Positions 17,093-28,176 of a stretch of 64,000 nucleotides of DNA are shown here, one piece after another. Under the pieces are notes generated by a model, which was not told where the DNA came from, ran no database searches, and was given only the letters and a program-made list of their open reading frames with translations. Each line of letters starts with the position of its first letter. The first letter of the stretch is position 1. Both the position numbers and the translations under genes were made by a program. The DNA is taken from the IMG/VR virus record IMGVR_UViG_3300045051_000531; one strand, written 5' to 3'. This stretch comes from a virus.

Positions 17093-17340
17093 TCCCGGAC
17101 CGTAGTGGTACCTAGGGTAGTTGTCAATAAATGGAGTACCCCGGCCAGGGGGTCCCAGGGGGCCAGATCCCCCTGACCGGGGATCGATCCCCCTGGGGAG
17201 GCATATACCCCCTACCGGGGGTACTTAATAAACACCCCATATGTCGCATAATACCTTGAGTCCCCTATAGCTCTCACGAACTAATAGAGATTCAGGATCC
17301 AGCAGGTTCAAGCTTCGGCTTGGATCTGAGGGGTACCTAT
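17093..17340. promoter_or_regulatory. divergent intergenic region rich in palindromes
   Basis: Strand-switch point with several G/C-run inverted repeats and AT-rich patches. Confidence 0.4.
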
Positions 17341-17343
17341 CAC

Positions 17344-17420
17344 TGCAGAATGGAGGAGAGGTTGTCCTCGCTGGGCTCATATCCCAGAGACCGCTGGTTC
17401 GAATCCAGCTTCTGCACCCA
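17344..17420 (+). tRNA. tRNA-Met(CAU), initiator-like anticodon stem
   Basis: Cloverleaf; CTGGG-CTCATAT-CCCAG; encoded CCA. Confidence 0.88.
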
Positions 17421-17440
17421 TAGCCCTTCGGGGCTGCATA

Positions 17441-17625
17441 ACGGGGGTAGCGCAGTCTGGTAGCGCGTCGGGCTCTGTCATACGAGGTCTCCCATCCTTT
17501 AGCCGGGACAGTGGGATCTCAGACAACTTTAGGAGATGTTGAGACCGGGTCGGCTAAACCCGGTTTTGATGTTGCCTGAAGCGATGACCCGAAGGTCGGT
17601 GGTTCAAATCCATCACCCCGTACCA
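17441..17625 (+). tRNA. tRNA-Met(CAU), initiator-like, interrupted by a 108-nt insertion (17476-17583)
   Basis: 5' half ends TCGGG-CTC and 3' half starts ATGA-CCCGA; joining them gives a 77-nt fMet-like cloverleaf with CCA. Confidence 0.85.
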
Positions 17626-17633
17626 TTCATGGA

Positions 17634-17700
17634 ACCGCCAGACCACGTAGCCGCTGGAGCCGGTGCTCCAACGACCGCGTGGTCTGGCGGTATGTTTTTC
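17634..17700 (+). terminator. long hairpin followed by a U-tract
   Basis: Perfect 14-bp inverted repeat (17634-17647 / 17678-17691) then ATGTTTTTC. Confidence 0.55.
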
Positions 17701-17724
17701 TTTACCTATTACACAGGAGGTCAG

Positions 17725-18324
17725 ATGCGCTCAGATCTCGAAGCTTTGGTCGCCCGGTTCGCCGCCAAGGCGCACCTCGGCCAGGTCCGGAAGTACGTCG
17801 CGGCGCCGGAGATGGTGCCCTACATCTTCCACCCCGCCGCCGTCGCCGACATCGTCCGCGACTTCGGTGGAACGGAATCCATGATCTGCGCGGCGTGGCT
17901 CCACGACGTCGTCGAGGACACCCCGGTGACCTTGGCGGACATCGATAGGGAGTTCACGCGGGAATCCGGTCACGGCATCGCGGAGCTCGTCGGCTGGCTC
18001 ACCGATGTTGCCAGACCCAGCGATGGGAACCGTAAGGCTCGGGTCAAGCTGAACCGGGAGCACTCCTGGGCGGCCCCTGTGGAGGCCCAGGTCTGCAAGG
18101 TGGCGGACTGCATCCATAACACGTACAGGATCTACGTGCTGGCTCCCAAGTTCGCTCCGATCTTCATGGCCGAGATCAAGGAGCTCATGGGTGGTCTCGA
18201 TAAGGTCGACCCCAAAATCAAACAGGTCTGGTATGACATGACCGGAACCGATGCGGACGACTTCAAGTACGAGGTCGCATCGCCGGAAACCCGTCAGCTT
18301 ATCGGATCACTAACCGGGCCGTAA
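17725..18324 (+). CDS. HD-domain small alarmone hydrolase-like protein (SpoT/Mesh1-type)
   Basis: Motifs PYIFHP, AAWLHDVVEDT and CKVADCIHN; RBS GGAGG. Confidence 0.85.
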   Translation: MRSDLEALVARFAAKAHLGQVRKYVAAPEMVPYIFHPAAVADIVRDFGGTESMICAAWLHDVVEDTPVTLADIDREFTRESGHGIAELVGWLTDVARPSDGNRKARVKLNREHSWAAPVEAQVCKVADCIHNTYRIYVLAPKFAPIFMAEIKELMGGLDKVDPKIKQVWYDMTGTDADDFKYEVASPETRQLIGSLTGP

Positions 18325-19812: not shown

Positions 19813-19980
19813 TGCCGTGATCTGAGCTCTTTCTCATCTTTCCCTGCAGAGGGGCACCCGGATGGACCGGGTGCTAATGCCCCCGCGGTGGCCCGCGGAC
19901 CGTCCCAAGGCGGCTATTGCAAGTCTGAGATCTGTCATTAGTGTTCCGTCGTTGACAACTAAACGCAATACCATGGTTAT

Positions 19981-20051
19981 GGCGGGGAGCCTCAGAGGTC
20001 GGCTGGTCTCATAAGCCAGCTTAGATGGTTCGACTCCATCCCCCGCAACCA
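19981..20051 (+). tRNA. tRNA-Met/Ile2-like (CAU) with truncated D-arm
   Basis: Loop CTCATAA, T-loop TTCGACT, encoded CCA; D-arm has only a 3-nt loop; G1.A72 mismatch. Confidence 0.65.
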
Positions 20052-20055
20052 CTTA

Positions 20056-20118
20056 GAGGCGCAGCGGCGTCAGGGTTACTTCTTGGAACGAAACACACCC
20101 TGGCTTCATTCTCGCCTC
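20056..20118 (+). ncRNA. Y-RNA-like unit 1 (short)
   Basis: Paired termini GAGGC/GCCTC with shared CAGCGG, GTTACTTC and ATTCTC motifs. Confidence 0.7.
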
Positions 20119-20130
20119 GTTGACAACTTC

Positions 20131-20250
20131 GCCGGCAGCGGTGATCGGGTTACTTCTTTAGTAAAGAAGAGGTCGTTGGTTCGAGTCCAACCAGGGGCAA
20201 CCCTGTAGCTCAGTGGCAGAGCGCTAAACACCTGATCTTTATTCTCCGGC
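20131..20250 (+). ncRNA. Y-RNA-like unit 2 with permuted tRNA module
   Basis: Shared motifs plus anticodon-like arm, T-arm, capped acceptor hairpin and D-arm. Confidence 0.78.
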
Positions 20251-20260
20251 TTTTAGCTTC

Positions 20261-20384
20261 GGCAGTAGCGGTGATTGGGGTTACTTCTCTGATAAAGAAA
20301 AGACCTGGGTTCGACTCCCAGCAGGGCTTCGGCTCTGTAGCTCAACGGTAGAGCGTAAAAACACCTCGATCTATATTCTCTGCC
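20261..20384 (+). ncRNA. Y-RNA-like unit 3 with permuted tRNA module
   Basis: Same architecture as unit 2; loop CTGATAA. Confidence 0.78.
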
Positions 20385-20395
20385 TTTTCAATTTC

Positions 20396-20519
20396 GGGCG
20401 CAGCGGTTCTAGAGTTACTTCTATCCAATCTGCTGGACCGGTTCGACTCCGGAAGGTCATAGACCTTAGTGTAACGGCAGCACAGCGGACCCAAAAGCCT
20501 CTAGGCAGTATTCTCGCCC
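20396..20519 (+). ncRNA. Y-RNA-like unit 4 with permuted tRNA module
   Basis: Shared motifs, T-arm, acceptor hairpin and D-arm; anticodon-like stem poorly paired. Confidence 0.72.
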
Positions 20520-20528
20520 TTGTTCTTC

Positions 20529-20657
20529 GGTGGCAGCGGTGGTCGCGTTACTTCTATACTAAAGAAAAGGTCGGTAGGTTCGACTCCTACCCCAGGGGGC
20601 CAGATCCCCTGGTAGCTCAGCGGTAGAGCGTAAAACACGCGGCTTATATTCTCCACC
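20529..20657 (+). ncRNA. Y-RNA-like unit 5 with permuted tRNA module
   Basis: Same architecture as unit 2; loop ATACTAA. Confidence 0.78.
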
Positions 20658-20666
20658 TTGTCTCTC

Positions 20667-20732
20667 GGTCGCAGCGGCGTCACGGTTACTTCTCTCATAA
20701 AGAAACAACCACCGTGGCGGCTATTCTCGACC
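20667..20732 (+). ncRNA. Y-RNA-like unit 6 (short)
   Basis: Shared motifs; TTCT-CTCATAA-AGAA stem-loop. Confidence 0.7.
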
Positions 20733-20741
20733 TTTCTCCTC

Positions 20742-20803
20742 GCTGGTAGCGGTGCCCCGGTTACTTCAGCCATACGAAACCACCGGTGCGATTATTCTCC
20801 AGC
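20742..20803 (+). ncRNA. Y-RNA-like unit 7 (short)
   Basis: Shared motifs; paired termini GCTG/CAGC. Confidence 0.68.
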
Positions 20804-20813
20804 TTTTCACCCG

Positions 20814-20846
20814 AAGCCCGACGGTAACCCCGTCGGGTTTCTTTTT
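20814..20846 (+). terminator. intrinsic terminator after the ncRNA array
   Basis: GCCCGACGG/CCGTCGGGT stem followed by TTTCTTTTT. Confidence 0.65.
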
Positions 20847-20859
20847 CGAAGGGAGCCCT

Positions 20860-22401
20860 ATGGGCAGGTTCGCAACAAATCCGGCGCTCGCCGCCGGTGC
20901 GGTTCGCGCCGCTGATACCACGAACGCGGCCGGAGGCCGCGCCTACGCCAACGACCCGAAGACGTCGCTGGCCATCCAGCTCGTGTCGAGCTTCGCCTCC
21001 GGTGACCACTACCGGGACGAGGCCGCCCAGCTCAAGGGTCTCCTGGACGCCGTCCAGAAGGTCCCCGATCTCCAGTGGGTCGCCAAGGCGGCGATCTATG
21101 CCCGCGACGTCATGGGCATGAGGACCACGAGCCACTTCGTGACGGCCTGCATCGCGGTCTTGGGCCACGGCCAGCCTTGGCTCAGGAAGTTCTACCAGCG
21201 CGTCGTCCTGCGCCCCGACGATATGTGCGAAGTGTTGGGGGCGTACTGGATGCTGAAGGGCCACACCGGGAAGGGCAAGACGGCGGTGCCGAACGCGCTG
21301 AAGCGCGGCTTCGCGGACCGCTTCGCCCAGCTCACCGGGTACGCCCTGGCGAAGTACCGCGGCGGTGGCCGCGCCGTCAAGCTGATCGACGTGGCCCGCT
21401 TGGTCCACGCCAAGGGCGACCTGGTCACCCAGCTCTGCAAGGGCACCCTGCCCCCGGCGGAGACCTGGGAGGTCGGGATCTCCGGCGCCGGCGATGCCGC
21501 GGCTCGTACCAAGGTCTGGGGCGACCTGCTCCGCACCGGCAAGCTGGGCTACATGGCCACGATGCGGAACCTCCGCAACATCGCCAAGGACGCCCCGGAT
21601 CACCTCGCAGCGGCCCTGGAGGTCATCCGTGACACGGAACGGATGCGCAAGGCCCGGGTGTTCCCGTTCCGCCTGTTCACGGCCTACCGGCTCTTCGAGA
21701 CCACTGAAGGTGCCGAAGGTCTGACCAGGGCCCAGATCCGCGAGATCCACGAGGCCCTCTCGGTGGCCCTGGACGCCTCGACAACCACGGTTCCTAAGTT
21801 CGAGGGCGACTCCTTGGTCGTCATCGACACCTCGGGGTCCATGGAGTCCACGGTGTCCCAGAAGTCGTCGGTCCGCTGCGTCGAGGCAGCGGCGGTCATG
21901 GGGGCCACGGTGCGCCGCCAGAACCCGAAGTGCGACATGGCGATCTTCGCGGACACCTCGAAGTACATCACCACGGGCCCCGCGGCCCGCCCGGTGGTGG
22001 ACGTCGTCGCAGGGGTCCTCGGCAAGATCGGTGACGTCGGGCACGGCACCAACATGAGCTCGATCTTCGGGCTCATCGATCTGGCGCAGTTCAGGCGCAT
22101 CTTCGTGATGTCCGACATGCAGAGCTGGTACGGGGACGAGACTGCGGCCACGAACTGGCTGAACAGGAACCCCAAGAACCACCTCTACGTGTGGAACCTG
22201 CATGGCGACGGGTCCACCCTGGCGGCCCCGGAGAACAAGCGGGTCATCCAGCTCGGCGGGTTCAGCGACAGGATCTGGGATACGATCCCGATGCTGGAGC
22301 AGGGCCCCGCAGGTCTGGTCCAGGCGATCGACGCCTGGGACCCCTGGGCGAAGAAGGCGGCCGATGCCGCCGAGGATCCCGGGGCGGACCCGGTTTCCTG
22401 A
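20860..22401 (+). CDS. rsr: Ro60/Rsr-like TROVE-domain RNA-binding protein with C-terminal VWA domain
   Basis: TTNAAGGRAY, ETWEV..S, LGYMATMRNLRNI, PFRLFTAY, and MIDAS-like IDTSGSM ... VMSDMQ. Confidence 0.92.
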   Translation: MGRFATNPALAAGAVRAADTTNAAGGRAYANDPKTSLAIQLVSSFASGDHYRDEAAQLKGLLDAVQKVPDLQWVAKAAIYARDVMGMRTTSHFVTACIAVLGHGQPWLRKFYQRVVLRPDDMCEVLGAYWMLKGHTGKGKTAVPNALKRGFADRFAQLTGYALAKYRGGGRAVKLIDVARLVHAKGDLVTQLCKGTLPPAETWEVGISGAGDAAARTKVWGDLLRTGKLGYMATMRNLRNIAKDAPDHLAAALEVIRDTERMRKARVFPFRLFTAYRLFETTEGAEGLTRAQIREIHEALSVALDASTTTVPKFEGDSLVVIDTSGSMESTVSQKSSVRCVEAAAVMGATVRRQNPKCDMAIFADTSKYITTGPAARPVVDVVAGVLGKIGDVGHGTNMSSIFGLIDLAQFRRIFVMSDMQSWYGDETAATNWLNRNPKNHLYVWNLHGDGSTLAAPENKRVIQLGGFSDRIWDTIPMLEQGPAGLVQAIDAWDPWAKKAADAAEDPGADPVS

Positions 22402-28103: not shown

Positions 28104-28176
28104 GCGTCCGTACCTCAGTGGCAGAGGAGCGGTTTCTAAAACCGGCCAGTCGCGGGTTCGATCCCCGCCGGACGCA
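28104..28176 (+). tRNA. amber-suppressor tRNA (anticodon CUA)
   Basis: Canonical cloverleaf numbering puts CTA (28136-28138) at positions 34-36, with U33 and A37; G1-C72, A73; no encoded CCA. Confidence 0.85.

What the first reader, a model, noticed from the sequence alone, without database searches (positions are those of the whole stretch)
17441..17625. tRNA-Met(CAU) split inside the anticodon by a 108-nt insertion with miniature group-I-like topology
Seen: removing 17476-17583 restores the loop CUCAUGA, so the insertion lies between C34 and A35, and it ends in G. It can form: a P1-like hairpin at the 5' junction (CTC/GAG); a P3-like helix GGTCTC 17486-91 / GAGACC 17541-46; a crossing P7-like helix TCAGACAAC 17519-27 / GTTGCCTGA 17571-79 (one mismatch); and a P8-like hairpin whose loop CGGCTAA is complementary to TTAGCCG in the upstream hairpin loop (kissing loops). 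CAGACAA and GATGTTGCC echo the group I CAGACUA and GAUAUAGUC motifs. Known: group I introns are usually well over 200 nt, and enzyme-spliced tRNA introns sit at 37/38. Inference: a very small self-splicing or protein-assisted intron that gates, or shields from anticodon nucleases, an initiator-like tRNA.
Basis: partly seen in the sequence, partly recalled or inferred. Interest (0 to 1): 0.85.

Follow-up and report, generated by a model that had tools for sequence, protein, structure and literature searches.

The report
Kissing-hairpin insert splitting phage tRNA-Met
An initiator-type methionine tRNA gene of an uncultured 191-kb phage is split inside its anticodon by a tightly folded 108-base two-hairpin RNA; the insert failed the group I tests that gave a clear result and I found no relative, so how or whether it is removed remains open.

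Summary
The split is real. ARAGORN with introns allowed, and the Rfam tRNA model, both call a tRNA-Met(CAU) at 17441-17625 with 108 nt (17476-17583) between C34 and A35.

The group I reading is not supported:
- No Rfam group I match, even at E<=10.
- The last exon base is C, not U.
- There is no P4-P6 domain.
- The proposed P3 and P7 helices have zero ensemble probability and cost 14-24 kcal/mol.
- 4% of shuffles give an equally good crossing pair.

What is significant is a different fold: a 4-bp basal helix plus two hairpins at -46.6 kcal/mol (0 of 2000 shuffles reach it). The antisense strand folds no better than chance. The two apical loops are complementary over 8 nt (0 of 2000 shuffles).

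The complete phage genome has no recognisable RNA ligase, splicing endonuclease or RNase III, and no second copy of the insert. I found no homologue in any collection searched, so covariation cannot be tested.

My best reading (0.4) is a non-self-splicing intervening sequence that needs trans-acting enzymes. The main rival (0.3) is an unspliced tRNA-framed stable RNA like phage T4 rnaC.

The scan has noted similar designs on other DNA (phage mini-introns, tRNA frames with kissing arms), but no sequence look-alike of this insert.

The parts
17344..17420 (+). Upstream uninterrupted tRNA-Met(CAU). It has a GGG:CCC anticodon stem, loop CUCAUAU and an encoded CCA, lies 20 nt before the split gene, and is in the same transcription unit by position.
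   Evidence: ARAGORN; Rfam tRNA 56.6 bits
17421..17440 (+). 20-nt spacer that can form an AGCCC-UUCG-GGGCU tetraloop hairpin.
   Evidence: read
17441..17475 (+). Exon 1: acceptor 5' strand, D arm, anticodon-stem 5' strand, then C32 U33 C34.
   Evidence: ARAGORN -i; Rfam tRNA alignment; best E. coli matches are annotated tRNA-Met genes
17476..17583 (+). 108-nt insert between C34 and A35; its last base is G.
   Evidence: MFE -46.6 kcal/mol, z -4.08; 0 of 2000 shuffles as stable; antisense z -1.2
17476..17525 (+). Arm 1. Basal helix UGUC 17476-79 / GACA 17522-25, then hairpin 17484-17520 with apical loop 17499-17504.
   Evidence: MFE and centroid structure; unchanged in the cloverleaf-constrained precursor fold
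17527..17581 (+). Arm 2. A 23-bp hairpin (7 G.U pairs, one A.G mismatch) with a 7-nt apical loop at 17551-17557.
17498..17505 (+). Loop-1 segment UUUAGCCG, complementary to 17551-17558.
   Evidence: duplex -9.8 kcal/mol
17551..17558 (+). Loop-2 segment CGGCUAAA, the kissing partner of 17498-17505.
17584..17625 (+). Exon 2: A35 U36 G37 A38, anticodon-stem 3' strand, variable loop, T arm, acceptor 3' strand, A73, encoded CCA.
   Evidence: the best E. coli match (H82) is an annotated tRNA-Met gene, while the other listed matches lie under no annotated feature
17634..17703 (+). Long G+C-rich hairpin followed by a T run: a terminator-like end of the two-tRNA unit.
   Evidence: scan; hairpin drawn in the chance MIR860 alignment

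Best explanation
This is a genuine initiator-type tRNA-Met gene in a two-tRNA transcription unit. Its anticodon loop carries, after C34, an autonomous 108-nt RNA domain: a 4-bp basal helix and two hairpins locked tip to tip by an 8-nt loop-loop pairing. It is not a group I intron and most likely cannot splice itself. I read it as an intervening sequence of the poorly understood kind seen in large phages. The precursor would be trimmed at its ends like any tRNA (RNase P; CCA is encoded). The insert would be cut at C34|U and G|A35 by a protein nuclease. The halves, held together by the cloverleaf, would then be resealed by a ligase that the phage does not visibly encode, for example a host RtcB. 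The product would be tRNA-Met(CAU) with loop CUCAUGA. Shown here: the split, the fold statistics, strand specificity, the intact cloverleaf, the absence of group I features, the absence of phage ligase or endonuclease families, and the same gene spacing in three assemblies. Inferred: transcription, end maturation, excision, ligation and the enzymes involved.
For: 1) Excision restores exactly a 7-nt loop with U33 and CAU, matching the initiator-type body with three G:C pairs closing the anticodon stem. The same uninterrupted 18-nt stem-loop occurs in another phage's tRNA-Met, L002. If the flanks had been drifting freely, this restoration would be very unlikely. 2) The cloverleaf is intact apart from G7.A66. 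3) There are no flanking direct or inverted repeats (read) and no second copy in the genome, which looks intron-like rather than transposon-like. 4) The fold is RNA-level and strand-specific. 5) In the cloverleaf-constrained precursor fold (-75.6 against a free MFE of -76.0) the insert keeps its fold, and U33-A38 and C34-G37 extend the anticodon stem to the junction. 6) The GT-to-HD gene gap is 632 nt in two further assemblies, so the insert is probably fixed. 7) Precedent exists: unexplained introns in phage tRNAs (PMC6784885).
Against: No bacterial or phage protein-only tRNA splicing pathway has been demonstrated (my knowledge; none found). The complete phage genome has no match to RtcB, RNA_ligase, RNA_lig_T4_1, tRNA_int_endo, DNA_ligase_A_M or 2_5_RNA_ligase2, only a sub-threshold AAA_33 match in a helicase, and no RNase III. 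For RNA_lig_T4_1 the control genomes did not ring either, so that one result is uninformative. The insert is not tRNA-shaped, so the RNase P / RNase Z route proposed for Lak-type inserts does not apply. There is no bulge-helix-bulge motif. An upstream Met tRNA makes this gene dispensable. No homologue was found, so there is no covariation and no intron-less allele.
Confidence: 0.4

Rival explanations
1. It is an unspliced tRNA-framed stable RNA. The tRNA body only provides RNase P and CCA maturation and stability, as in phage T4 rnaC or engineered tRNA scaffolds. The kissing-hairpin domain stays in place as the working part, and the RNA cannot decode. It may act as a decoy or binding platform for a factor that handles initiator tRNA.
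For: T4 rnaC has the same design principle: an acceptor/T-arm frame plus two hairpins whose loops UUGACG / GCGUCAAC are invariant in five diverged homologues. No splicing machinery is needed, which fits the absence of ligase and endonuclease genes. This phage already invests in non-decoding tRNA mimics: a Y-RNA array with permuted tRNA modules next to Ro60. A relative carries a tRNA frame with an aberrant anticodon arm beside its HD gene (L028). The very stable, tertiary-locked domain looks selected for its own sake.
Against: Exact retention of CUC...AUGA, a complete D arm and a 5-bp initiator-type anticodon stem is unexpected for an old scaffold RNA; rnaC has lost these parts. There is no sequence similarity to rnaC or to anything else in the phage collection. 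The function would be unknown.
Confidence: 0.3
2. It is a recently disrupted, non-functional tRNA gene. A structured intron-like element from elsewhere landed in a redundant tRNA-Met copy and is neither removed nor useful.
For: Two other CAU tRNAs exist in the genome. The acceptor stem has a G7.A66 mismatch. The locus is an orphan: relatives at about 50% protein identity lack it. No splicing enzymes were recognised.
Against: The gene keeps its terminator-like signal and encoded CCA, and every other stem is intact. The gene spacing is the same in three assemblies. No donor copy was found anywhere. Phage genomes usually lose dead DNA quickly (general knowledge).
Confidence: 0.15
3. It is a self-splicing mini-ribozyme: a pared-down group I core as the first reader drew it (P1/P10 guide, P3-P7-P8 pseudoknot, terminal G, a loop-loop brace replacing P4-P6), or a new chemistry.
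For: The helix order P3, hairpin, P7, P3', P8, P7' can be drawn. Insert bases 9-11 (GAG) and 3-6 (UCAU) can pair with the exon ends CUC and AUGA in the P1/P10 order. The last base is G. A crossing pair this good occurs in only 4.2% of shuffles. The review PMC3984707 lists a paper by Ikawa et al. [quoted passage not shown]
Against: No RF00028 match or any ribozyme family at E<=10, and none elsewhere in the genome. The splice site has C-G rather than U.G. There is no P4-P6. A 13-nt linker sits where P7 normally runs almost directly into P3'. P3 and P7 have pair probability 0.0 and the forced folds are 14-24 kcal/mol worse. The motif echoes were found post hoc.
Confidence: 0.07

Closest known systems
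Group I introns in bacterial tRNA anticodon loops (Azoarcus tRNA-Ile, cyanobacterial tRNA-Leu and tRNA-fMet; Rfam RF00028)
   Same: An insert inside the anticodon loop of a bacterial-type tRNA, a terminal G, and short pairings of the insert's 5' end with both exon ends are possible.
   Different: About half the size of the smallest natural examples (~200 nt, from my memory). No CM match. C instead of U at the 5' splice site. No P4-P6. The core helices are not supported. The review PMC3984707 states that up to 2014 all phage group I introns were in protein genes.
'Enigmatic' tRNA introns of Lak megaphages (Devoto et al. 2019, PMC6784885, Table S6)
   Same: A phage tRNA gene split in the anticodon loop by a roughly 90-110-nt insert that fits no Rfam class and has no shown splicing route. 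A leading hairpin is followed by a longer helical module.
   Different: The Lak insert I read holds a nested tRNA look-alike with a true TTCGAAT T-loop. This insert has no T-loop motif and ARAGORN finds no tRNA in it even at 60% thresholds. Its two loops pair with each other instead.
Phage T4 species 1 RNA (rnaC, NC_000866 70908-71046)
   Same: Encoded in a tRNA cluster; an acceptor stem and T arm frame two hairpins whose loops are complementary and conserved.
   Different: rnaC has no D arm, no anticodon stem and no restorable anticodon loop. There is no sequence similarity. The rnaC hairpins replace the tRNA core, whereas here they sit inside an otherwise complete tRNA.
Archaeal enzyme-spliced tRNA introns at non-canonical positions (bulge-helix-bulge, EndA plus RtcB)
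   Same: A protein-dependent route that can remove introns from many tRNA positions.
   Different: No bulge-helix-bulge can be drawn. No EndA or RtcB in the phage. The genome has bacterial-type signals such as Shine-Dalgarno sites and hairpin/T-run terminators.

Membership tests
Group I intron (RF00028) | Significant match to the family covariance model | tested here: not met
   cmscan of 17300-17800 with permissive filters, E<=10: only tRNA and chance hits. Gathering-threshold scans of the window and the rest of the genome: none.
Group I intron (RF00028) | U as last exon base forming the U.G wobble in P1 | tested here: not met
   The last exon base is C17475; the P1-like pairing would be C-G.
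Group I intron (RF00028) | Terminal G (omega-G) | tested here: met
   G17583; the chance expectation is about 1 in 3 at this G+C content.
Group I intron (RF00028) | P4-P6 scaffolding domain (PMC3984707) | tested here: not met
   Only one short hairpin (insert bases 17-40, 24 nt) lies between the P3-like and P7-like 5' strands.
Group I intron (RF00028) | P3-P7-P8 pseudoknotted catalytic core with a G-binding site | tested here: inconclusive
   The helices can be drawn. However, pair probabilities are 0.0, forced folds give -22.8 and -33.1 against -46.6 kcal/mol, and 4.2% of shuffles match. No homologues were available for covariation.
Group I intron (RF00028) | Self-splicing with G addition in vitro | not testable with these tools
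   Needs a bench experiment.
Lak-type tRNA-shaped phage tRNA intron | Nested tRNA look-alike with acceptor-like stem and canonical T-loop | tested here: not met
   ARAGORN on the insert alone finds none, even at -ps60. There is no GTTC and no canonical GTTCRA-type T-loop; one loose TTYRANN match at insert base 90 lies in the hairpin-2 stem. The Lak example has TTCGAAT.
Lak-type tRNA-shaped phage tRNA intron | Insert within the anticodon loop of a phage tRNA, with no Rfam class | tested here: met
T4 rnaC-type tRNA-framed stable RNA | Acceptor stem plus T arm framing two hairpins with complementary loops | tested here: met
   This locus. T4 and four diverged homologues.
T4 rnaC-type tRNA-framed stable RNA | Sequence homology to rnaC | tested here: not met
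   blastn of the locus and of the insert against 50,697 phage records (which include 748 rnaC holders) finds no rnaC match.
T4 rnaC-type tRNA-framed stable RNA | Accumulates unspliced as a stable RNA | not testable with these tools
Archaeal BHB intron | Two 3-nt bulges separated by a 4-bp helix at the splice sites; EndA present | tested here: not met
   In the constrained fold the 5' site lies at a helix-helix junction and the 3' site in a 4-nt linker. PF01974 is absent.

The most novel reading that the evidence does not exclude
The 108-nt insert is a natural self-splicing RNA about half the size of any known group I intron. It would be either a stripped P1-P3-P7-P8 core braced by a loop-loop contact in place of P4-P6, or a new splicing chemistry, switching out of its resting two-hairpin fold.
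Probability: 0.06. Interest if true: 0.95.

Novelty: new variant of a known kind. Interest (0 to 1): 0.55.

Why it matters
Bacteria and their viruses are only known to remove tRNA introns by group I self-splicing. A growing set of large-phage tRNA genes carry small inserts that fit no intron class.

This case differs from the others in three ways:
- The insert is neither ribozyme-like nor tRNA-shaped.
- The phage has no recognisable ligase or endonuclease.
- The fold is a kissing-hairpin module, as in the 50-year-old unexplained T4 rnaC.

If it is spliced, an unknown host-dependent tRNA splicing route exists. If it is not, phages build non-decoding RNAs on complete tRNA frames. Either answer can be obtained with one Northern blot or a junction RT-PCR.

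Tried and rejected
1) Homologue searches, all negative:
- blastn 'distant' of the locus and of the insert alone against phages.
- megablast of 10 kb around the locus.
- Eight IMG/VR scans. They covered an exon-anchored gap pattern, the intron-less stem-loop, each tRNA half, a pattern that excludes intact tRNAs, and three protein queries. They returned only ordinary tRNAs or chance hits.
- One metagenome scan.
- One scan of 185,579 species genomes: 46 chance hits, no tRNA.
- Contexts of Ro60 and HD-hydrolase relatives at about 50% identity (L003, L005-L007, L028-L030): no split tRNA.
- The scan's own index: no look-alike.

3) Other tRNA introns in the genome: ARAGORN's 'tRNA-Ser with a 360-nt intron' lies inside a 513-aa ORF with no Rfam hit, and its 'tRNA-Arg with a 54-nt intron' is a pair of Y-RNA units. 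Both are false.

4) Hammerhead and hairpin-ribozyme motifs, checked by eye at the splice sites, are off register or lack core bases. Rfam finds no small ribozyme.

5) A Ro60-binding Y-RNA motif (GCAGCGG ... UAUUCUC) is not present in the insert (read).

6) Trans partners for the two loops: each 7-mer occurs once more in the window, less often than expected by chance.

7) An ORF starting at 17536 inside the insert is only the upstream extension of the HD gene's frame. The coding signal and the AGGAGG-ATG start begin at 17725.

Full report
CONTEXT. The window is the minus strand of bases 83875-147874 of a 191,518-bp IMG/VR virus record. The record has direct terminal repeats, is estimated complete, and has 62.6% G+C. 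It is a very novel phage:
- No nucleotide or tblastn match to 50,697 phage records for the regions tried.
- Seven of its ten largest proteins match no PHROG.
- Bacterial-type signals are present: AGGAGG-ATG starts, hairpin/T-run terminators, encoded CCA.

All 13 credible tRNA genes lie in the window.

THE OBSERVATION.
- The Rfam tRNA model aligns end to end at 44.2 bits with a 112-nt insertion in the anticodon loop.
- The spliced sequence is a 77-nt cloverleaf with loop CUCAUGA, three G:C pairs closing the anticodon stem, A1:U72, A73 and encoded CCA. Its only non-standard stem pair is G7.A66.
- The best E. coli matches of exon 1, and the top match of exon 2, are annotated tRNA-Met genes.
- An identical uninterrupted 18-nt stem-loop exists in an unrelated phage tRNA-Met, L002.
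- Two further assemblies of nearly the same phage have the same 632-nt gap between the flanking genes, so an assembly artefact is unlikely.

WHICH FOLD. The minimum-energy and centroid structures of the insert agree. Both show a basal helix (insert bases 1-4 with 47-50), hairpin 1 (9-45) and a 23-bp hairpin 2 (52-106), at -46.6 kcal/mol.
- None of 2000 dinucleotide shuffles is as stable.
- The antisense strand reaches only -31.2 kcal/mol, z -1.2. The structure therefore lies in the RNA of the tRNA strand; seven G.U pairs in hairpin 2 explain the asymmetry.
- The two apical loops are complementary over 8 nt, UUUAGCCG / CGGCUAAA. A loop-loop run of 7 or more occurred in 1 of 2000 folded shuffles, and 8 or more in none.
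- The fold survives unchanged when the cloverleaf is enforced on the 185-nt precursor (-75.6 against -76.0 unconstrained). U33-A38 and C34-G37 then extend the anticodon stem up to a three-way junction.

- Their pair probabilities are 0.0.
- Forcing P3+P8 gives -22.8 kcal/mol and forcing P7+P8 gives -33.1.
- Helices of this size are common in shuffles (58% and 24%), and a comparable crossing pair appears in 4.2%.

NOT A GROUP I INTRON. The review PMC3984707 defines the class by P1/P10 substrate helices, a P4/P6 scaffold, a P3/P9 catalytic domain and a G-site in P7. Here:
- No covariance-model match at E<=10, and none elsewhere in the genome.
- C rather than U precedes the splice site.
- Nothing stands for P4-P6 beyond one hairpin.
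- A 13-nt linker lies where P7 normally abuts P3'.

Only the terminal G and short P1/P10-like pairings fit. I keep self-splicing at about 0.07. [quoted passage not shown] I did not read that paper.

OTHER KNOWN KINDS.
- No bulge-helix-bulge motif can be drawn.
- The Lak megaphage intron I read contains a nested tRNA look-alike with a TTCGAAT T-loop. This insert has none, even at relaxed ARAGORN thresholds.
- T4 rnaC shares the design principle. Its loops UUGACG and GCGUCAAC are invariant in five homologues whose stems have diverged. It lacks a D arm, an anticodon stem and any sequence similarity.

MACHINERY. The complete genome gives no match to RtcB, RNA_ligase, RNA_lig_T4_1, tRNA_int_endo, DNA_ligase_A_M, 2_5_RNA_ligase2 or RNase III. 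AAA_33 gives only 14 bits, inside a helicase. The RNA_lig_T4_1 control rang nowhere, so that one result says little.

HOMOLOGUES. None was found by any route (listed under Tried and rejected). Covariation, intron-less alleles and flank conservation therefore cannot be assessed. Relatives at about 50% protein identity lack the locus.

WEIGHING. Exact restoration of an initiator-type anticodon loop, the intact cloverleaf, and the lack of terminal repeats or other copies all argue that the insert arrived as an intron-like element. They also argue that the gene is, or recently was, selected as a tRNA.

Several points argue the other way. No enzymes or processing mimicry are recognisable. The domain is very stable and tertiary-locked. 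This phage also makes many tRNA mimics: the Y-RNA array plus Ro60, and a tRNA frame with an odd anticodon arm in relative L028. These suggest the RNA may simply stay whole.

My estimates:
- Protein-dependent intervening sequence: 0.40
- Unspliced rnaC-like stable RNA: 0.30
- Dead gene: 0.15
- Self-splicing: 0.07

Earlier notes of this scan supplied the Lak and rnaC leads. I checked both on primary data here, and they are not independent evidence.

Noticed in passing
window 20056-22401: A tandem array of Y-RNA-like units, several with permuted tRNA modules (T arm, closed acceptor hairpin, D arm), lies directly upstream of a Ro60/TROVE gene (20752-22401; Pfam TROVE 7e-25). A tRNA-Met at 19978-20051 precedes the array. 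The order tRNA-Met, Y-RNA array, Ro60 recurs in L005 and L006 (Ro60 51% identical).
   Followed up: partly
window 17725-18324: A 199-aa HD_4 (RelA/SpoT-type small alarmone hydrolase) gene starts 100 nt after the split tRNA. More than 2000 homologues exist, many in phage-sized contigs. It could counter alarmone or tRNA-pyrophosphorylating defence toxins; this was not tested.
   Followed up: partly
L028:10615-10696: A relative (196.7-kb Logan contig) carries an 82-nt tRNA-framed RNA 30 nt after its HD gene. Acceptor, D and T arms and CCA are normal, but the anticodon arm is long and aberrant and contains GCAGCGG, the motif shared by the Y-RNA units.
   Followed up: partly
window 28104-28176: A tRNA with anticodon CTA (amber suppressor; ARAGORN labels it Pyl) scoring 58 bits in Rfam.
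   Followed up: no
window 17344-17420: The upstream tRNA-Met is itself unusual: an initiator-like GGG:CCC anticodon stem but loop CUCAUAU (U38), U1:A72, discriminator C and an atypical D arm.
   Followed up: no
G000 contig bases 49584-50041 (L016) and window 20199-20330: With introns allowed, ARAGORN also calls a tRNA-Ser with a 360-nt intron and a tRNA-Arg with a 54-nt intron. The first lies inside a 513-aa ORF with no Rfam hit. The second is two adjacent Y-RNA units. Both are false positives.
   Followed up: yes
L027:909-1047 (T4 rnaC) and alignment A1: In five diverged T4-like phages the rnaC loop segments UUGACG and GCGUCAAC are invariant while the stem of the first hairpin is largely replaced. 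This suggests a conserved loop-loop contact in this old RNA of unknown function.
   Followed up: yes
L128, L143, L068 (metagenome contigs): Isolated 3' halves of tRNA-fMet (from CTCATAACCCGAAGG to CCA) occur without a 5' half. They look like integration-site remnants of mobile elements targeting the initiator tRNA gene.
   Followed up: no
whole genome G000: Seven of the ten largest proteins match no PHROG family.
   Followed up: partly
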